DNA of 64,000 bases, taken from the human T2T-CHM13v2.0 reference genome, Homo sapiens. Of the stretch, positions 1,195 through 51,995 are shown in pieces. Both the position numbers and the translations under genes were made by a program. Location: the NCBI RefSeq assembly GCF_009914755.1, contig NC_060947.1; one strand, written 5' to 3'. The notes below the pieces were generated by a model that was not told the origin of the DNA, did no database searches, and saw nothing but the letters and a program-made list of their open reading frames with translations. The first letter of the stretch is position 1, and each line of letters starts with the position of its first letter.

Positions 1195-5860
<4,666 letters not shown>

Positions 5861-24404: not shown

Positions 24405-26535
24405 TCCAATGTGAAAAACCCACAGCTAACATCAAATTCAATGGTGAAAGCCTGAAAGCCTTTCCTTTAAGATCAGGAACAAGACACCTGCATTCAAAAT
24501 AATTTTGGAAGTTCTAGACAAAGCAATTACATGAAGAAAAAGAAGCATTCAAATTATAAAGAAAGTAAAATTATTTCTGTTCACAGGTGACATTACCTAG
24601 TTTGTAGAAAAATTTAAGGATTCCACAAAAGAACTGTTCGAACTAATAAATTCCGCAATGTTGTAGGATACAAAACCAACACATAAAAATCAGTTGCATT
24701 TTTATACATTGACAGTGAACAACCCAAAAAGAAAATTAAGAAAACAATTCCATTTTCAATAGCATCAAAAAGAATATAATAATTAGGAATAAACTTAACT
24801 AAGGAGGCAAAAGACATCTGCACTGAGAACTACAAAATGTTGATGAAAGAAAATTTAAAAGACAGAAATAAATGGAAATGCATTCTGTGTTCATGGATTG
24901 AAAGACTTAATATTGTTAAGATGTCAGTACTAACAAAAGTGATCTATAGATTCAATCCCTATCAAAATCTCAATGATGCAATGATGTTTTTTGCAGGAAT
25001 AGAAAAATGCATCCTAAAATTCATATGGAATCTCAAGGGATACTGAATAACTAAAACAATCTTGAGAAAGAAGAACAAAGTTGGAGGTCTCACACTACCA
25101 GATTTTAAAACTTACCAAAAATCTACAGTAATCAAAATAGTATGGTACTGGCATTAAAGACAGACAAATAAACTAATGAGATAGAATAGAGAGCCTAGAA
25201 ATAAACTCTCACTTATATGATAATTGATTTTTGACAAGGGTGCCAAGACCATTCCATGAGGGAAAGGACAGTCTCTTTAATGAATATGTGAGGAAAACTG
25301 AATATCCACATGCCAAAGAATGAATTTAGATACTTCCCTTACACCATATACAAAAATAAACTCAAAATAGATCAAAGCCCTAAATGTAAATCTAAAACTA
25401 TCAAACTCTTAGAAGAAAACATGGGGGGGAACCTTCATGACATTAGTTTTGGCAATGATTTCTTGGATAACAAAAGCACAGGCAACAAAAAATAGATAAA
25501 TTGGATTTATCAAAATAAACTTATGTGCATCAAAGGACACTAACAACATGGTGAAAATGCAATCCATGCAATGGGAGAAAATATTTGCAAATCATATATC
25601 TCATAAGGGACTAATATTTAGAATATATAAATAACTCCTACAACTCAACAATAAAAAAAATAATCGAATTAAAAACTCGGCAAAGGACCTGAATGACTAT
25701 TACTCCAAAGGAGATATACAGATTGCCAATAAGTACACGAAAAGATGCTCAACATCACTAATTAGTAAGGAAATGCAAATCAAACCACACAATGAGATAC
25801 CACTTCACATTCATTAGGATGGCTATTATACGAGAAAAAAAAAATAACAAGTATTGGCAAGGATGCAGAGAAACTGGAACCCTTGTGCATTGTTGATGGA
25901 AATGTAAAATGGTACAGCCACTGTGGAAAACAGCATGGCAATTCCTCAAAAAATTAAACATACAATTAATATATGATCCATCAATTCCACTTTGAGTACA
26001 TATCCAAAAGAATTGAAAGCAGGAGCTTGAATAGATATTGTATGCCAATGGTCAATAACAGCATTATTCACAATAGCCAAAAGATGGAAACAACCCAAGT
26101 GTCCACCAAGGGATGAATAAATAAATAAAATGTGATATAGACATACAATGGAATATTATTCAACCTTAGAAAGGAATAAAATTCTGATACATGCTATAAC
26201 ATGGATGAACCTTGAAGACATTATGCTAAGTGATATAAGCCAGACACAAAAGACAAATATTGTATGATTCCATTTATATGGGGTACCTAGAGTAGTCAAA
26301 TTCATAGAGACAGAAAGTAGAATGGTGGTTACCAGGGACTGGGTTTTGGGGGGAATGGGAGGTTGTTGTTTAATGGGTACAGCTTCAGTTTGGGAAGATG
26401 AAAAAGTCTGGAGACAGATGGTGATAATGGTTGCACAACAATGTGAATATATTTCATGTCACTAAACTGTACACCAAAAATGATCTATATGGTAAATTTT
26501 GTTTTTTATATATATATATATATAAATACAGTAAA
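24405..26535 (+). mobile_element. 5'-truncated L1MB
   Basis: ORF2 fragments (KWKCILCSWIERLNIVKMS.., KTIKLLEENMG..) and L1MB 3'UTR. Confidence 0.88.
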
Positions 26536-27536
26536 AAAGTCCAATGTCATCATTATGAAAACTCTTAGCAATGCATACTAAAGAAGGACTATATAGTAAA
26601 TTAGGATTTCTGCTGTACCTGTGTAAATAAACAAGCCAAATCTAATGAGTTCAGCCTCATTTTGTGGTCAAGAATAACCATACTTTGAAATTAATGTTTA
26701 TCAAAAATAGAAAAACTATAGGAAAAATGTTCTTCAAAGGAAAATTGTGTGTTATTTATAGTACACCCTTCTGGGTTGTTTGATTCTGATTCTATGGGAG
26801 CAATATTATAGCTCTGTACACTTTTAGTTACTTAAAGAAATGGAAATAATTCCAGTCTATAAATATGCAAATGAATTTTGTACAGTGAGGGTGTGGAAAA
26901 GAATGGCCTTCCTCTCTTGCGGCAAAGCCTGAGAAAGAGGTTATTTTCAGTTTAAAAATAATGAAGCTTTAAAATTTCATGCAGTCATATCTGTTAATAT
27001 TTATTATATTAAATAGTAAAACAGAAATTTTTAATATATTTATATTAATTCATGTTAAACTTACAATAAAATATCCATTACATTCTGTAAACCTACATTG
27101 TAAATTTATATGAAAAATATGTTTTCTAAAACAAGTCATAAGGAGATGGACTTTTTATTTGAAAATCTCTTTAATATTTATTCTAACAGAAGTCTGTTGA
27201 ATTCTTATATATGTTCCTGCAATTAATCTGTTGAATATAATATATAAGGTATCTCTGGAAAATTTCAGCATATATTTGTGAGGGAATGAGAATGAAAAAT
27301 ATAGATAACATCTTACAGGTCCCGTGAATGGCTTACCTACAAAAATAACTAAAAGAACTGATTCGTTAGTAAAGTGGTATAATGCAACATTATTAAGTAT
27401 AACCCACTATTTTATTTTTTAAACAAATTGGACCATAGATACATTAAACTAAAATTGATAATATCTAGTTTGTTGTAAAAAAAATGTTTTAAAATTAGCA
27501 GGACATCACACTTCAAGAACTAAAGTAGATTCAATG

Positions 27537-27914
27537 TTACTGGAACATGGTTCTTACCTTTGGTTTTCAATACAGCGTGTTTGTGGATATCCCCAGACAG
27601 CATCAGGCTCGGGTGGTCTGGATCTCTCTGGAGGTGATAGTGGAGCACTCAGTGTAGCAACCTGGCAGCCAGCCTTGGTGGTGATGTGCTCAAAGATGTC
27701 GATAAGAAAATCATTCATGATGCCCAAGAAATTTAATGTAGTGCTGATATCAGGATGAAATTGCTTCAGAACCCTGTAAACATAGATGTAAATATAGACA
27801 GTTACTCAACTGTCTCCATAGCATCTCTTTTCACATCTTCCCCTTCTGTGTTTTGGAAATGACTTTCTTAAAGCCCTTTTTATTAAAGTCAGATTTAGAA
27901 GAATGCTCAGCCAT
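27537..27914 (-). pseudogene. Degraded histone H2B pseudogene (canonical/TH2B-like tail, H2B.W-like core motifs)
   Basis: Minus-strand translation across frameshifts: MAEHSSKSDFNKKGFKKVISKTQKGKM* ... RCYGDS*VTVYIYIYVYRVLKQFHPDISTTLNFLGIMNDFLIDIFEHITTKAG ... [14 protein letters not shown] ... LMLSGDIHKHAV. This aligns to H2B [62 protein letters not shown]. In-frame stops and indels are present. Confidence 0.9.
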
Positions 27915-27974
27915 GACGGACATTGTTTTCAATACCTTGAAATGAAAAAGATAGTGGTTGGTGACAGGGTGGTG

Positions 27975-28120
27975 CCCATGTATAGGCCCTGTATTCAAAT
28001 GAAGTACTGGGTACACACACAATTTCTAATTAGATGAAATGTAATTCGAGGAAACCCTGCCAATAAACCACACAATGGCAAATGTGATTGGATAGTTCTA
28101 TGTGGCACAGTCCAATGAGA
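27975..28120. promoter_or_regulatory. Decayed H2A/H2B-type bidirectional histone promoter
   Basis: On the H2B strand, ATTTGAAT (27993-28000; octamer ATTTGCAT 7/8) is followed by TATA-like CTATACAT (27978-27985). Three CCAAT boxes occur in mixed orientation (28060-64 +, 28087-91 -, 28112-16 +). Confidence 0.6.
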
Positions 28121-28499
28121 AGGCATGAAACGGTCAGGCTGACTGAAAGCTTCCTGTAGGCTCCACCAAGAGCACTTTGAAGATACCATCTACAGCAGCT
28201 AAATTGGAGCAATTTCAGCTTCAACTTGTTGAGTGATTCTGATCTCCATAACCCGGTCCGTAATGCCAGAGGAATGATGCTGGCCACGTTCGGGCCATTT
28301 GTCCAGTAACCCAGAATCTAATGTCACCCTGGGCTAAGCCACTGTGGCTTGAGCAGGAATCCTCCCACATGGGAGAGGAGCTCGTGGAAAACAAGAGACC
28401 TGGCTAACAAACCACTGCCTCCCATTCTTATCAAAAACCTCAATGACTCAAGGAAAGATGACAAAACTATGGTCTCCAAACAACACACACAAAAAACAG

Positions 28500-29350
28500 G
28501 AATATTTATTAAAATGTAAAATATTCATGAGCAATAAACAATTTAAAAATAGTTTTCTTGACAATACTTAGGTCCTAGAAACATACTTTAAACTGTATAA
28601 TTTGTGGATAAATATCAGGGCTCTTGGCTGAAAAAAGTTACTAAACTAAACATCTAACTAAACTCCTTAGGGAGAAAAGGGAAATAATGTAGGAAATATT
28701 ATTCAATGGAAAGGATATCTCTTTTAAATATCTATGATAATACAACTGAAAATATTGAATGAATGTATAAATTTGTGGAAAATATAAATGACAGAAACTA
28801 AACCCACTCTCCTCCCCACAAAAGAGATTTAAGGACTAAGAAGAATAGAAGAAATCGAGGTCACCAGTGAGCTACCATCCCAAAAGGCCAGGCTTCCAAA
28901 AGTATTTCATGTCAAACCACTAAGGAACAGGTGTTCTTTTCTCTTAATGGAACGGTGTCAGATTACGAAGGGAAAAAATATCATTTTGATGTAAGGAAAA
29001 TATGCCAAAAAGAGTTCTGACCAGTGACATTTATAAGCGAGAATATAAAATCCTACATAAAATATTAGCAATTACATCTGGCATCATAGTTAATGATGAA
29101 CAAAAAGGGACAAAGCAGGATTCATCCAAAAATACAAAGATGTTCCAGTAAAATACAAGTATGATTCACCTTATGATGTTAAAGGAAAAAAGGGTAATCT
29201 TCAGTTAATCTCAGTACATGATTTAACTTCCTTTGCTAATATAATGAGTTATACAATGTTTGTTTCATGGTAAAATACTAGCATTACCATCATTAGAGTC
29301 AGGATTCAGAAAAATTGAGCCCTCTCATCAAGACTATTATTTATCAAGAT
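28500..29350 (+). mobile_element. Highly diverged ancient L1 ORF2 fragment
   Basis: GAATGAATGTATAAATTTGTGGAAAATATAAA, AAAATCCTACATAAAATATTAGCAA and GCAGGATTCATCC match degraded L1 RT-region sequence. Confidence 0.55.
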
Positions 29351-29395
29351 CTGGTGTATTTTTAAAAATCTTATAAAAGGACTTGAAAAAGGATT

Positions 29396-29444
29396 TTACT
29401 GCAGAGGAGACCTGGAAAACTACAACAAAATAATCTGCAAGTAA
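29396..29444 (+). pseudogene. Histone H2A C-terminal remnant
   Basis: TTA CTG CAG AGG AGA CCT [G] GAA AAC TAC AAC AAA ATA ATC TGC AAG TAA reads LLQRRP-ENYNKIICK*, versus H2A LLPKKT-ESHHKAKGK*. Same length, stop in register, most differences one nucleotide per codon, and a histone stem-loop follows. Confidence 0.6.
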
Positions 29445-29506
29445 ACTGCCCAAAGAGGTACCACATGATTGACTTACACATTTGGGACAACATTTTGGGA
29501 AACCAA

Positions 29507-29568
29507 GGCTTTTTTCAGAGCCATGTGTGGCTTGAAAAAAAGGCTTTCTCTTTCAGAGAAAGAGCTGT
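29507..29568 (+). terminator. Replication-dependent histone 3' stem-loop plus histone downstream element
   Basis: CCAA-GGCTTT-TTTC-AGAGCC-A (stem-loop 29507-29522; 15/16 to GGCTCTTTTCAGAGCC, 6-bp stem with one G-U, TTTC loop). AAAGAGCTGT at 29559-29568. Confidence 0.8.
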
Positions 29569-30605
29569 GGACATATTTGTAAAAAAACATTTCATTAAGT
29601 CACTTAATTTATATCATGCTGCTTCAAAATGCCAATGTCTGTCAGTGTGCCATACAAATGTTTTACCAAAATTATTCTAGCATATTGGTCTCATACACAT
29701 TGTATTATGGAAAAAGGCATTTTTAATATATCAAATCCATGAGGACAGTTATAGCGCTTTTGCCATTTTCCTCTTGTAAATTCAGAAAGTAAATAGAAAC
29801 ATTAGTGAAAGAACATTAAAAATGCGTTATAATTTGGCTGAGAGTGCAGGGGTGATTGAGATAGATGAATCTGGTAAGTAAAGAAAAAAAACAAGGCTTG
29901 ATGCTGAAAGGCTAGATGGGGCAATGAGTACATCTGATTATTAACCTGGTGGGTGCATGACGAACAAGGAGACTGGGCAAGAGTGCTCTAATTCTGTGTT
30001 AAAAAAAAAAAGACTAAGGGAAACAGCTTTAACTGCTGTAAATAACGTACTATAAGCAGGACTCCTGGGGAAACAGTGTTACTGGAATAAAAATATCACA
30101 AGCTTTTTTTGAATTCATGTTAATACATGATGAAAACAAAAAGCACAGAAATATATATCATAAATTTCAAGAAACAGTCCAATCCCCTTACCAAGCTCTC
30201 TGGACTCTGAAATTTGTATTCTATTTCATTGAGGCTTATTCAGTTCTGTTCTTTCCCAGTCAAAAGTCTTTTTAAAAATCATAAATCTTAATGAGCTGCA
30301 ATTATGCCTGACTCAGATGATGTGAGCATTCAATGAGTGCAGCTCATACCCCACTCTCTGCTGGGTCAGCCAATGTAGGACCCGCAGCCCCTGAGCTATT
30401 GGCCCAGAGTGTGGGGAGGTGACCCTGCTGAACCAATAAGAGCCTTCCTGGGATGTTCAGCCTTGGATGTTGAAGAGGAAACTGGTGTGGCTCTTTGCTT
30501 AGGTTTGGTAGCTTTATTGTCTAATCTTTTGCTCCCAATCATGGAGATTTAAGGATATAAATTCAGGGCTAGTAGTTGTGGACATAATTCCTGCCTCATA
30601 CATCA

Positions 30606-30956
30606 TGTTAGTCCATTTGTGCTGCTAAATACCTGAGACTGGGTAATTTATAAGGAACAGAAAGTTATTTCTCACAATTCAGGAGGCACCAGCAAGTTTG
30701 ATATCTGGTTGAAGGATCAGGTTCTGCTTCCAAGAAAGCATCTTGTTGCTGCATCCTCATTTGGAGGAAAGTGTAGGGACAAAAGGGGCCTACGCAGTTC
30801 CCTCCAGCCCTTTTATAAAGTCGTTTATCCTGTTCATGAGGGCAGAGCCCTCATAGCCTAATCACCTGCTAGGGCCCCCACCTCTGAATACCATTACATT
30901 GGATATTAAGTTTCAACATGAATTTTGGAGTAGACACAAACATTCAAACCATAGCA
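30606..30956 (-). mobile_element. MST (MaLR) solo LTR
   Basis: TTAGTCCATTTGTGCTGCT..TACCTGAGACTGGGTAATTTATAA...ACATTCAAACCATAGCA. Confidence 0.8.
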
Positions 30957-30984
30957 CATGGCAACTGATTAAGAAAAATAATGT

Positions 30985-30986
<2 letters not shown>

Positions 30987-31020
<34 letters not shown>
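30987..31020. repeat. (CA)n microsatellite
   Basis: About 17 perfect units. Confidence 0.95.
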
Positions 31021-31021
<1 letters not shown>

Positions 31022-32772
31022 GCTAAATGAATGTTATCTTATTTTTTTCACTTCCAAGCACATATGCCTGAAAATAAAACCCACCACCTCAACTTGGAAG
31101 GATGAAATCCCAGCTCCCAGTGCAGTCACCAGTACAATGGGTTTGGTCCTTATTCCTGGCCCCTTACTGCCCATCTCCTCTTTGATCCTGGCCTGTTACT
31201 ACTGGATAAGAGGAGAATAAGGATGGTGTGAGGAGGAGAAAGTTTGAAAAAGTAGCCACTCTTTCCCCTTATCTTGAGGGACTTTAAAAACAAATCTAGG
31301 GTCATCGGCAGGTTTTGCCCAGTCCCTGAGGAGGACATTAGGGGAACATGAGAGCACCCAGACTTCTCTTTAGTGGGTCATCAGTCCAGTCCTTGCATGC
31401 TGACCCGTGGTCCATCTGAGAGATGTGATAGGCCAGCCCTGCCCCTCATGGCTTCTACTATTACTAAGTAATACCAAAACCCATCCATAATTTAACTACC
31501 TCTGCTTCCAAGATCTTTCCACACAGAGGTAAGTGTGAACAACATCAGCCTTTGGAGGTTGAAACTAGGCAGGGACCATATGGCTTTGGGTGGACCTGAT
31601 GCTTGATCAGATATTTTGTCATGCACTATAAGGAATCTTGTTTTAAGAATAAATAATATGCATAGTCATTACACTTGTTAAAATAATTGTGAATAGTGAA
31701 TTCTGTCCCTTCTAGTAACTGAGAGTCCTTTCCCAGATGGAATCTTCTCACAGAACTGAAGGACCTTACCCATGGCCGGGTAGGTTTTGGGTTAGGTCTG
31801 ACACCAGAACCCAGGACGATCTCTTGAATTTCACTCCAGCGTCTGCTCTATCAGACATGGCATTAGACTGAGTGTTTGAGCCTATCAGAGACTCATAGAA
31901 ACTGTGCCTCTCTGCATTAACCTGCTTGCCAAGAAATACGTTAAAATAAAATCTAAATGCTATGTTGATTTGCTTGATCTCCCTCAATATTCACTTGGTT
32001 AATTAATTCAAATTAAAATGTGTAAGCACATTTTTCTCTTAACAAACTCCAACAACTGGGGATATCAGCAATCATGCTGAATTCCAGGGGCTGCTTCTCC
32101 TTTTCACTGTCTTTGAATTTCTTCTTGTGGCCTCAAACCTGAACCCATTTTCAACTCCATAGGTATGTGGTTTTGTAGACAGGAGGGTGACAGAGGGATT
32201 ACAATGGAAGTAGCAGTGCTATATTTGTGTTTTTATCCCATGTTGTTTGAAGCTGTAATTTGTTCATTTTCATTTCTGTGTTGTAATGCATTATAGGACT
32301 ATAACACTATTCTTCTGTTGATGAACATTTGCATTGCTTTATGTTTTGTACTTAATGATCAATCTTGTTCACATCTTTTGGTGGACATAAAAACTCATTT
32401 CTGTTGCATATATACCAGGAGTGCAACTACTGAGTCAGAGCATACATGAATGTTTAACCTTAGTAAATACTGACAGCTTTCCAAAGTGCTTTTTCAATTT
32501 GTAGTTCCAGCCAGAATGTATATGTGGGTTCTAGTTACTCTGTATCCTTACCAACTCTCCACATTATTTGTATTTCAACTATTATATGCCCATTTCACAG
32601 ATGGGCTAACCCCTGGGCCTAGAAGAGGTTACTTTTCTAAAGTAAATACCAAGTCTGAATTCTAGATTCTTTCCACTATGCCAGGTTTTCAACTTTTAGA
32701 TTATGAGTTTCCAGTACTCAAGTATTGGTTGTTCCAATTACACAGGATAACACTTTTGTAACTTTAAAATTA

Positions 32773-37763: not shown

Positions 37764-41245
<3,482 letters not shown>

Positions 41246-41375
41246 TGATCTTCAGAAAAATTTCACCAACATATTCAATAAGAGCAGGGGAGAGTGCATG
41301 TGTCCCCAGTCCTTCAACAAATCTGTTAAAAATTTTCATGTAATCTAATCTATCAGCATTTGTCTCTTTGTTGTA

Positions 41376-41572
41376 CAGTCACACTGCGTATCGATTGGTC
41401 AACGACAACGGACAGCATAGAATACGATAGGCTATAGTATGTAGCCTAGGAGTGTAGTAGGCTATACCATATAGATTTGTATAACTACACTCTACGATGT
41501 TCGCACCACCACGAAATTGCCTGATGCATTTCTCAGAACATATCCCCGTTATTAAGTGGCACGTGACTATAA
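41376..41572. mobile_element. Tigger3-like DNA transposon fragment
   Basis: TA-CAGTCA...TGACTA-TA ends and GTAGCCTAGGAGTGTAGTAGGCTATACCAT motif. Confidence 0.6.
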
Positions 41573-51313: not shown

Positions 51314-51692
51314 AAGTCCACTTTCAGATAACACTCTTATGCTTAACTTGTATGTAGTGCACATACCTTAATGCAGAGCATTTGTCATTCATTTCAATTA
51401 CTCATACACTATAATCACTCAGTATATTGTTGCTATTATTTCTTCAGACAGTTATCTTTTAGATCAATTAAGAATAAGAAAAATAAATATTTTTCTTTAC
51501 TTTCATTTATTTCATTTCTAATCCTCTTTCATTCTTTATGTAGATCTCAGTTGCCTGAAGAAAATCTTTTAACATTTCTTAAAGTGCAGGTTTGCTGGTG
51601 CTGAATTCCATCAGTTTTTATTTGTCTGAGAAAGTACTTATTTCATTTCTCCTTCACTTTTGAAGGATAATTTTGCTGGATATAGAATTTTA

Positions 51693-51995
51693 GGCTGGAC
51701 ACAGTGGTGCACAACTGTAATCCCAGCACTGTGGGAGGCCAAGGCAGGTGGATCACTTAGCTCAGCAGTTTGAGACCAGCCTAGGCAAAATGTAGAAACT
51801 CTGTCTTTACAAAAAGATACAAAAATTAGCCTGGCATGGTGACATGTGCCTGTAGTCCCAGCTACTCAGGAGGCCGAGGTGGGAGGATAGCTTGAGCCCA
51901 GGAGGTCTAGGCTGCAGGGGGCCATGATTGCACCACTGCTCTCTAGCCCGAGCCAGGGTGAGACCCTGTCTCAAAAAAAAAAAAAAAAAAAAAAA
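51693..51995 (+). mobile_element. Alu (J-like)
   Basis: Alu dimer; TSD AGAATTTTAGG. Confidence 0.9.

What the first reader, a model, noticed from the sequence alone, without database searches (positions are those of the whole stretch)
27537..29568. Fossil divergent H2A-H2B histone gene pair, with promoter and 3' processing signals, split by an ancient L1
Seen: four parts in the order and orientation of a replication-dependent H2A/H2B unit. (1) H2B on the - strand (27914->27537). (2) Octamer-like ATTTGAAT, TATA-like element and three CCAAT boxes upstream of it. (3) An H2A-like C-terminus LLQRRP-ENYNKIICK* on the + strand (29396-29444). (4) A histone stem-loop 62 nt after that stop, plus AAAGAGCTGT. 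About 850 bp of degraded L1 lies where the H2A body should be. Established: canonical H2A/H2B genes, including TH2A/TH2B, are head-to-head pairs sharing an Oct-1/CCAAT promoter and ending in stem-loop/HDE, and they sit in autosomal clusters. Inference: this is a DNA-level copy of a whole histone pair, not a processed pseudogene, stranded in the X-linked BEX/TCEAL cluster. The H2A half is too short for ordinary pseudogene pipelines and may be unannotated.
Basis: partly seen in the sequence, partly recalled or inferred. Interest (0 to 1): 0.85.

Follow-up and report, generated by a model that had tools for sequence, protein, structure and literature searches.

The report
Fossil H2B–H2A histone pair, X-linked
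Upstream of TCEAL4 lies the dead remnant of a head-to-head H2B/H2A histone gene pair that was copied as DNA, and it belongs to the same old family of copies that gave rise to the X-linked testis histone H2B.W genes.

Summary
The H2B pseudogene (27537-27914, minus strand) is certain. The octamer/TATA module and three CCAAT boxes lie upstream in the usual H2B order. A histone stem-loop (29507-29522) and an HDE-like element (29559-29568) lie on the plus strand, and this is the only significant stem-loop match in the 64 kb. The H2A tail is too short to stand alone in the window. Four paralogous copies support it: two more on chrX and one on chr6, 6.8 kb from TH2B. Their consensus aligns to the last 50 bases of TH2A, with the stop codons coinciding. 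Part of the DNA in between is L1 ORF2 (profile E about 2e-6). The same L1 piece and the same L1/H2A-tail junction occur in the chr6 copy and another chrX copy, so the L1 predates the duplication and did not hit this copy in place. No H2A body could be shown. The unit is a DNA-level copy with flanks and promoter kept and no poly-A. It shares flanks with four tested H2B.W-type loci and groups with H2B.W in a coding-sequence tree (UFBoot 91), while keeping a TH2B-like N-tail. This is an ordinary pseudogene with a useful evolutionary reading.

The parts
27077..27536 (-). Flank downstream of the H2B stop, shared with paralogs. 27155-27314 inside it is a dispersed repeat.
   Evidence: blastn: window 27077-27542 matches chrX 100.43 Mb (E 2e-44). 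Window 27202-27511 matches four H2B.W-type loci (E about 1e-16 to 1e-18). The repeat part is shown by many genome-wide hits.
27537..27914 (-). H2B pseudogene with at least three frame changes and premature stops. The N-tail is TH2B-like and the fold region shares states with H2B.W.
   Evidence: translations; solved H2B chains, E 1.4e-8 and better; tblastn with chr6 TH2B, E 1.6e-10; nucleotide alignment; tree.
27979..28000 (-). TATA-like CTATACA (27979-27985) and octamer-like ATTTGAAT (27993-28000), about 65-85 nt upstream of the H2B ATG.
   Evidence: Conserved in the chrX 100.43 Mb paralog and aligned with the octamer-TATA module of a canonical H2B gene.
28060..28116 (.). Three CCAAT boxes: 28060 (+), 28087 (as ATTGG) and 28112 (+).
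   Evidence: this is the only place in the 64-kb window with three boxes within 60 bp; same order as in the TH2B promoter.
28160..28545 (+). Conserved block of unknown identity, lying where the H2A 5' part should be.
   Evidence: Shared with chrX 100.43 Mb, four H2B.W-type loci and chr6:25.75 Mb. No significant match to H2A or to the available L1 parts.
28620..29290 (+). Old L1 ORF2 fragment. The limits are approximate. The supported stretches are 28731-28773 and about 29040-29245 (reverse-transcriptase part).
   Evidence: A profile of five paralogs hits L1 reverse-transcriptase DNA in L068 (E 2.2e-6) and at window 38465-38673 and 3443-3660 (E 2.6e-6 to 2.2e-5). Window 38399-38991 is Pfam RVT_1. 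blastn 28731-28773 against the L1 in L011 gives E 0.004. The chr6 copy against the same L1 gives E 3.8e-6.
29301..29444 (+). H2A-derived tail. The recognisable last codons are 29396-29444 (LLQRRP / ENYNKIICK, then stop TAA at 29442-29444).
   Evidence: The chrX 100.43 Mb copy matches 22 of 24 nt of H2A CDS 344-367 (E 0.42). The four-copy consensus aligns to TH2A CDS 346-396 with coinciding stops, score 15 against shuffles with mean 9.6 and max 14, 0 of 500 reaching it, but a reverse-complement control scores 14. The fourth copy starts its homology at 29301.
29507..29522 (+). Histone 3' stem-loop (GGCTTT TTTC AGAGCC, one G-U pair), preceded by ACCAA.
   Evidence: Rfam 20.9 bits; H2A 3'-end profile, E 1.2e-4 and 6.6e-4; the only hit below E 1 in the window; paralog scores 31.2 bits; paralog profile hits the TH2A 3' end at E 1.7e-8; fold.
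29559..29568 (+). HDE-like AAAGAGCTGT, 36 nt after the stem-loop. About 21 extra bases lie in between compared with the paralogs, which show 15-16 nt.
   Evidence: The chr6 and chrX 100.43 Mb copies carry the same element at normal spacing.
29570..30570 (+). Shared flank downstream of the H2A 3' end.
   Evidence: Window 28545-30041 matches chr6 in one alignment (E 2e-74). Window 29301-30488 matches chrX 102.454 Mb (E 1e-71). Window 30017-30570 matches H2B.W-type loci (E 1e-48).

Best explanation
The stretch is a dead, DNA-level copy of a replication-dependent-type, head-to-head H2B/H2A gene unit of the TH2B/TH2A (H2B.1/H2A.1) kind.

In the living ancestor, one bidirectional promoter (octamer, TATA and CCAAT boxes) drove both genes. 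The H2A message ended at a stem-loop plus a downstream purine-rich element. That these bind SLBP and U7 is established knowledge and was not tested here.

Before the unit was copied, a piece of L1 ORF2 already lay between the promoter and the last ~17 codons of H2A. A unit carrying that L1 now lies on chr6, 6.8 kb from TH2B, and in several places in Xq22. Two chrX copies (this one and one at 100.43 Mb) kept the H2B, the L1, the H2A tail and the stem-loop. Others lost the H2A end, and their H2B evolved into the H2B.W genes.

Shown: the H2B pseudogene, the promoter motifs, the stem-loop and HDE, the L1 piece, the shared junctions and the shared flanks. Inferred: the TH2-type ancestry, the chr6-to-X direction, the age (around the eutherian stem) and the kinship with H2B.W. 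The copy has no sign of present function.
For: - H2B.
- Promoter motifs.
- Stem-loop: it is the only hit below E 1 in the 64 kb on both strands (E 6.6e-4). The homologous positions also hit in the chrX 100.43 Mb copy (E 3.6e-7; Rfam 31.2 bits) and in the chr6 copy (E 4.9e-5).
- Kinship to H2A 3' ends: a profile of the paralogs hits 16 of 19 human H2A 3' ends at E<0.01. The best is TH2A, at E 1.7e-8 against 6.6e-6 for the next.
- H2A tail: the four-copy consensus aligns to the last 50 nt of TH2A with the stops coinciding.
- Shared L1 and junction: window 28545-30041 aligns to chr6:25599884-25601248 in one piece (E 2e-74). The chrX 100.43 Mb copy is collinear from 27077 to 30203.
- Not a dispersed repeat: a genome search with 28450-29750 gave only 6 candidate places, all paralogs.
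- H2B.W loci share 27202-27511, the H2B, 28164-28995 and 30017-30600.
- Tree: the chrX clade has aLRT 89.5 / UFBoot 91.
- Nucleotide alignment: the Phe codon of 'KKGFKK' is shared by the window, TH2B and the TH2B pseudogene only (0 of 6 canonical H2B genes). The 'TKAG'-type states of the fold are shared with H2B.W.
- Divergence: K2P 0.42-0.44 to chrX 100.43 Mb and 0.51 to chr6.
Against: - No H2A body was found. The H2A CDS and protein profiles, and a permutation test with a reverse-complement control, give nothing in 28100-28560 or 29290-29497.
- The tail test has a weak control: the reverse complement scores 14 against 15.
- Rfam scores for the window and for the paralog are both under the gathering score.
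- No stem-loop was found behind the H2B on the minus strand.
- The H2B remnant beside the chr6 copy is weak (tblastn E 0.025; DNA E 0.72).
- The tree does not resolve the link to H2B.1 (0/30), and the window-plus-H2B.W node has only 34/63 support.
- The conserved 28160-28545 block was not found at the chr6 25.599 Mb copy.
- An L1 fragment ending inside ORF2, without its 3' end or an A-tail, is not what a simple insertion leaves, so at least one later deletion must be assumed.
Confidence: 0.8

Rival explanations
1. The H2A tail, stem-loop and HDE are chance look-alikes inside the old L1 or another repeat, and only the H2B is real. This was my own first reading, from recalled L1 sequence.
For: By eye, the tail and what follows can be laid along L1 ORF2. 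In the window alone the tail is not significant, and Rfam is under threshold.
Against: The paralog profile hits L1 only at about 29040-29245. Beyond that point no L1 hit is better than E 2. The same profile hits 16 of 19 H2A 3' ends, best TH2A at E 1.7e-8. Of the four copies, the three on chrX (window included) keep the stem-loop at the homologous place and the chr6 copy keeps only its 3' half plus the HDE. The paralog tail reads LLPKGTE. The genome search finds no dispersed copies.
Confidence: 0.04
2. The H2B is a processed (retro-copied) pseudogene of TH2B, and the rest is coincidence.
For: Germline-expressed genes do give retrocopies. The N-tail is TH2B-like.
Against: The promoter module and CCAAT boxes lie upstream. 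No A-run follows the stop on the H2B strand. Homology to paralogs runs through both flanks.
Confidence: 0.02
3. The L1 inserted into the H2A of this particular chrX copy after its arrival. This is the plain reading of 'split by an ancient L1'.
For: An L1 piece does lie between the promoter and the H2A tail.
Against: The same fragment, in the same orientation and with the same right-hand junction, is present in chr6, chrX 100.43 Mb and partly in chrX 100.95 Mb. Its left part is present in the H2B.W loci.
Confidence: 0.03
4. The unit holds two separate H2A remains. One is a heavily deleted H2A body in the conserved block 28160-28545, next to the promoter. The other is an unrelated H2A 3' end further on, as in the chr6 locus where an H2A pseudogene with its own stem-loop precedes the L1-plus-tail piece. 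On this reading the L1 does not split one gene.
For: There is a weak H2A 96-110-like reading in the block (tblastn E 1.9; consensus E 0.43). The block starts about 250 bp from the H2B ATG, where an H2A should start. On chr6, two plus-strand H2A 3' ends lie 2 kb apart.
Against: None of the tests on the block is significant, and the reverse-complement controls score as high. No stem-loop follows the block.
Confidence: 0.15

Closest known systems
H2AC1/H2BC1 (TH2A/TH2B, H2A.1/H2B.1) pair at the end of histone cluster 1 on chr6
   Same: Head-to-head layout. CCAAT boxes plus octamer/TATA upstream of the H2B. An H2A 3' end with stem-loop and HDE, whose best match among 19 human H2A genes is TH2A. 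A TH2B-like N-tail (SSK, KKGFKK, KTQK). A related fossil lies 6.8 kb from TH2B.
   Different: Both halves are dead, the H2A body is missing or unrecognisable, an L1 piece lies inside, the location is X-linked, and no stem-loop is found behind the H2B.
H2B.W genes and pseudogenes (H2BW1, H2BW2, H2BW3P, H2BW4P) in Xq22
   Same: Collinear non-coding flanks on both sides of the H2B, including the left part of the same L1 piece. A common clade in the coding tree (UFBoot 91). Shared derived states in the fold region.
   Different: The N-tail has canonical length and is not the long H2B.W tail. This copy keeps the H2A tail and stem-loop, which the H2B.W loci lack next to the gene. It lies upstream of TCEAL4 and not between RAB9B and SLC25A53, where the HGNC paper places all four (PMC9526256, passages read).
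In-situ decayed pair next to TH2A/TH2B on chr6 (probably H2BC2P/H2AC2P; the name is inferred and comes from no call)
   Same: A DNA-level duplicate of an H2B/H2A pair that became a pseudogene pair. Raman et al. 2022 report that H2B.1 duplications often carry H2A.1 along and that humans lost one paralog (PMC8857922, section 8 read).
   Different: That pair is young and nearly intact (91% amino-acid identity to TH2B), lies inside the cluster, and has no L1 in its H2A.

Membership tests
Divergent replication-dependent H2A/H2B gene unit | H2B coding sequence | tested here: met
   It is decayed, with frame changes and stops.
Divergent replication-dependent H2A/H2B gene unit | H2A coding sequence on the opposite strand | tested here: inconclusive
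   Only the last ~17 codons are supported, and only through paralogs. No body was found.
Divergent replication-dependent H2A/H2B gene unit | Shared promoter with octamer, TATA and CCAAT boxes | tested here: met
   The motifs are present in canonical order and spacing, and the CCAAT triple is unique in the window. The sequence alignment to the TH2 promoter is not above chance.
Divergent replication-dependent H2A/H2B gene unit | 3' stem-loop and HDE behind the H2A | tested here: met
   Rfam is under its gathering score (20.9 of 34 bits). The profile E is 6.6e-4 for the whole window.
Divergent replication-dependent H2A/H2B gene unit | 3' stem-loop behind the H2B | tested here: not met
   No Histone3 match on the minus strand at E up to 10 in 26500-31500, and none in the profile scan.
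H2B.W lineage | Groups with H2B.W in phylogeny and shares flanks | tested here: met
   ChrX clade aLRT 89.5 / UFBoot 91, but sister position to H2B.W only 34/63. Flanks.
H2B.W lineage | Extended, divergent N-terminal tail | tested here: not met
   The window has a canonical-length, TH2B-like tail.
H2B.W lineage | Syntenic place between RAB9B and SLC25A53 | tested here: not met
   The window lies upstream of TCEAL4 (hub table). The H2B.W-type loci lie 330-490 kb further along. Definition taken from PMC9526256.
Processed pseudogene | Poly-A tail, target-site duplications, no promoter, no flank homology | tested here: not met
L1 (LINE-1) fragment | Similarity to ORF2 reverse transcriptase | tested here: met
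   The paralog profile hits three L1 copies at E 2e-6 to 2e-5. The single window sequence alone is not significant.
L1 (LINE-1) fragment | 3' end with A-tail and target-site duplications of a simple insertion | tested here: not met
   The L1 signal stops inside ORF2 near 29290, and no L1 3' part is detected after it.

The most novel reading that the evidence does not exclude
The TCEAL4-upstream fossil and its twin at chrX 100.43 Mb are surviving intermediates of the birth of H2B.W. An H2B.1/H2A.1-type pair from the end of histone cluster 1, already carrying an L1 piece in its H2A, was copied as DNA into Xq22 near the eutherian stem. It was then amplified with the BEX/TCEAL region, and one branch lengthened its N-tail and became H2B.W. 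That would settle by non-coding synteny a branching question that Raman et al. 2022 say protein trees could not resolve (PMC8857922, passage at character 21171).
Probability: 0.45. Interest if true: 0.6.

Novelty: new member of a known kind. Interest (0 to 1): 0.42.

Why it matters
By itself this is one more histone pseudogene, absent from the RefSeq table given for the window.

Its value is as a record. It keeps, in one 3.5-kb piece, three things: a TH2B-like H2B tail, H2B.W-like fold changes, and an H2A 3' end with processing signals. It also shares non-coding flanks both with the H2B.W loci and with a fossil beside TH2A/TH2B. That makes the origin of the X-linked testis H2B.W family directly testable with multi-species alignments. 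The question is whether the family arose by DNA copy of a clustered gene pair rather than by retroposition or an independent duplication of a canonical H2B.

It also shows that stem-loop-type histone pairs have moved off the clusters as DNA.

Tried and rejected
1. My own idea that 29396-29570 is L1 ORF2 came from recalled sequence. I rejected it.
2. Single-sequence tests for L1 all found nothing significant:
   - blastn of 28100-30500 against the rest of the window;
   - tblastn with frames of the window's L1 at 37800-41400 (best collinear hit KILHKILA at E 8.3);
   - nhmmer with a single sequence;
   - phmmer against solved structures with two open frames;
   - Pfam on 17 frames.
3. The match of window 25897-26445 to chr6 looked at first like flank homology. 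I dropped it because 25800-26515 is a high-copy repeat (19,765 first-look candidates). 27155-27314 and 30608-30687 are repeats too.
4. A search for an H2A body found nothing.
5. The profile of the tail region (three and four copies) against H2A coding sequences alone gave no hits at E up to 10. Only the consensus alignment gave a signal.
6. The whole-genome H2A protein search at E 0.001 listed 52 matches, none in this window or its chrX paralogs.
7. The short-H2A loci of Molaro et al. 2018 were considered as partners. The paper has no mention of TCEAL or of a stem-loop, and the chrX H2A hits lie elsewhere.
8. The earlier-findings tool was not open.
9. Literature searches for a prior description and passages of PMC8857922, PMC9526256, PMC5880237, PMC7586669 and PMC3380720 found none. 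The supplementary figures of Raman et al. (S8 synteny) were not visible and may show remnants. Their held supplement text has no 'TCEAL' or 'remnant'.
Full report
**What is in the window**

The minus strand from 27914 to 27537 reads as histone H2B. The reading switches among three frames and contains premature stops.
- It starts with MAEHSSKSDFNKKGFKKVISKTQKGK.
- It continues with VYRVLKQFHPD...GIMNDFLIDIFEHITTKAG, then [10 protein letters not shown], then LMLSGDIHKHAV.
- It ends at a TAA (27539-27537).

An 83-residue open piece matches solved H2B chains at E 1.4e-8 and better (188 distinct chains at E up to 1). TH2B read from chr6 of the same assembly finds it at E 1.6e-10. Pfam alone is weak (E 0.074).

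Upstream on the H2B strand lie several promoter motifs.
- CTATACA (27979-27985) and ATTTGAAT (27993-28000) have the spacing of the octamer-TATA module of a canonical H2B gene. Both are conserved in a paralog.
- CCAAT boxes lie at 28060, 28087 and 28112. This is the only triple within 60 bp among 121 boxes in the 64 kb.
- A plain alignment of this promoter to the TH2A/TH2B intergenic DNA is not above shuffles.

**The plus-strand 3' end**

- The stop TAA is at 29442-29444.
- 62 nt later comes GGCTTT-TTTC-AGAGCC (29507-29522).
- AAAGAGCTGT is at 29559-29568.

Rfam Histone3 gives 20.9 bits, E 0.029, under the gathering score of 34. For comparison, TH2A scores 42.1 and TH2B 35.7. A profile built from the 3' ends of 17 human H2A genes gives E 6.6e-4 over the whole window on both strands, and the next hit is at E 2.5. 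The RNA folds into the 6-bp stem and 4-nt loop.

**Relatives change the picture**

The window's own assembly could be searched. The stretch 28450-29750 has only six candidate places in the genome:
- itself;
- chrX 100.4368-100.4383 Mb (68-72% identity);
- chrX 100.953 Mb;
- two inverted places near 102.416 and 102.505 Mb;
- chr6:25,600,059-25,600,559.

The chr6 place is 6.8 kb from TH2B (H2A.1 at 25,591,913-25,592,305 and H2B.1 at 25,592,687-25,593,067). It sits just past a second, younger TH2-type pseudogene pair. Window 28545-30041 aligns to chr6 in one piece (60.5%, E 2e-74). The chrX 100.43 Mb locus is collinear from 27077 to 30203 and has its own H2B pseudogene in the same orientation. 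A fourth copy of 29301-30488 lies at chrX 102,454,251-102,455,484 (E 1e-71).

At the homologous position:
- the 100.43 Mb copy reads CCAAAGACTCTTTTCAGAGCCA (Rfam 31.2 bits, E 8.5e-6; profile E 3.6e-7);
- the chr6 copy keeps the 3' half plus AAAGGAGCTGT at normal spacing (E 4.9e-5);
- the 102.454 Mb copy keeps AAGCCTCTTTTCAGAGC (E 0.013).

A profile of the paralogs hits 16 of 19 human H2A 3' ends at E<0.01, best TH2A (E 1.7e-8, next 6.6e-6). The stem-loop and HDE are therefore ancestral to the copies, and they are H2A-type.

**The H2A tail**

In the window alone, LLQRRP/ENYNKIICK* is not significant.
- The 100.43 Mb copy reads ILLPKGTEKNGLKIICK.
- It matches H2A coding positions 344-367 in 22 of 24 bases (E 0.42 for about 13 kb on both strands). 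The match lies 67 nt before the stem-loop on the right strand.
- The majority consensus of the four copies aligns to TH2A positions 346-396, stop on stop. The score is 15 against shuffles with mean 9.6 and max 14 (0 of 500 reach it).
- The reverse-complement control scores 14, and profile searches of the same region against H2A coding sequences find nothing.

I count the tail as moderately supported.

**The L1**

I first thought, from recalled L1 sequence, that the tail and stem-loop were themselves L1. That was wrong. All single-sequence tests for L1 failed.

A profile of five paralogs does hit L1 reverse-transcriptase DNA:
- in a young L1 of L068 (E 2.2e-6);
- in two L1 copies of the window, at 38465-38673 and 3443-3660 (E 2.6e-6 to 2.2e-5);
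- the profile columns correspond to about window 29040-29245;
- window 38399-38991 is RVT_1 by Pfam.

Window 28731-28773 matches the same young L1 further upstream and in collinear order (E 0.004). The chr6 copy does so at E 3.8e-6. Past about 29290 there is no L1 signal.

The L1 piece and its junction with the H2A tail are shared by chr6 and by chrX copies. The L1 was therefore inherited and not acquired here. It ends inside ORF2 without an L1 3' end, so later deletion must be assumed.

**What could not be shown**

The block 28160-28545 lies where the H2A start and body should be. It is conserved in the 100.43 Mb copy, in four H2B.W-type loci and beside an H2B pseudogene at chr6:25.75 Mb. It gives no significant match to H2A or to the L1 parts at hand, and the reverse-complement controls score as high. 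It was not found at the chr6 25.599 Mb copy. The H2B remnant beside that chr6 copy is weak.

One apparent flank match to chr6 (25897-26445) is only a high-copy repeat and was dropped.

**Link to H2B.W**

Five H2B.W-type loci lie at chrX 102.346-102.504 Mb. The four I aligned share with the window the flank 27202-27511, the H2B, 28164-28995 (including the left part of the L1 piece) and 30017-30600.

In a nucleotide tree of 14 H2B sequences (375 columns), the window, the 100.43 Mb pseudogene and three H2B.W loci form a clade (aLRT 89.5 / UFBoot 91). The position of the window next to H2B.W (34/63) and the link to H2B.1 (0/30) are unresolved.

The alignment shows two patterns.
- TH2B-type states in the window's N-tail: the Phe codon of KKGFKK is found in TH2B, its pseudogene and the window, and in 0 of 6 canonical genes.
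- H2B.W-type states in the fold.

K2P distances are 0.42-0.44 to the 100.43 Mb copy, 0.51 to chr6, and 0.18-0.22 among H2B.W loci. On a commonly used mammalian rate (recalled, about 2e-9 per site per year) this puts the old splits near or before 100 million years. That is a rough inference.

**Literature**

- Raman et al. 2022 (PMC8857922; sections 7 and 8 and passages read) date H2B.1 and H2B.W to the eutherian ancestor. They report that H2B.1 duplications often carry H2A.1, and they say the branching order of the H2B variant clades could not be inferred.
- The HGNC paper (PMC9526256; passages and two supplement files searched) lists only H2BW1, H2BW2, H2BW3P and H2BW4P on the X, between RAB9B and SLC25A53.
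- Five searches found no description of a histone fossil near TCEAL4.
- Supplementary figures were not visible.

**Verdict**

This is an ordinary dead pseudogene pair. Its added value is that it looks like an intermediate between the TH2A/TH2B-type pair and the H2B.W family.

Noticed in passing
G000 chrX 102,417,005-102,503,978: Two identical H2B.W-type pseudogenes, each with one TGA, lie in inverted orientation about 87 kb apart and bracket the H2B.W.1 and H2B.W.2 loci. In this assembly W.1 is on the plus strand and W.2 on the minus strand, the opposite of the hg38 strands listed in Raman et al.'s supplement. The bracketed segment therefore looks inverted between the two assemblies.
   Followed up: partly
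L011 6120-6416, minus strand (chrX 100,436,120-100,436,416): An open 99-codon frame ending in ...DVEVTDSDIDDPDPV lies inside the extra 1.7 kb that the 100.43 Mb paralog carries between the conserved block and the L1 piece. It has no Pfam family at E 0.01.
   Followed up: partly
chr6:25,597,011-25,598,924 (L010 7011-8924): Beside TH2A/TH2B lie a 31-codon H2B fragment, an H2B.1-type pseudogene (91% amino-acid identity to TH2B), an H2A.1-type pseudogene with its own stem-loop (profile E 7.9e-11), and a third, very weak H2B remnant.
   Followed up: partly
chr6:25,744,001-25,754,000 (L065): A further nest of histone fossils: an H2A pseudogene (75% to TH2A), H2B fragments, and an H2B pseudogene whose upstream 560 bp is homologous to window 27915-28472 (E 8e-30).
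   Followed up: partly
window 29523-29568: About 21 extra bases lie between the stem-loop and the HDE compared with the paralogs. Together with the HDE they form a second hairpin (GCTTTCTCT..AGAGAAAGAGC), and the 73-nt fold is at z -2.0. It looks like a local duplication.
   Followed up: no
window 25800-26515; 27155-27314; 30608-30687: Dispersed repeats. The first has 19,765 first-look candidates at 75-79% identity. Their families were not named.
   Followed up: no
window 3443-3660; 37800-41400; 51641-51865: Other L1 pieces: reverse-transcriptase DNA at 3443-3660 and 38399-38991 (plus strand), and an ORF1 dsRBD-like piece on the minus strand.
   Followed up: no
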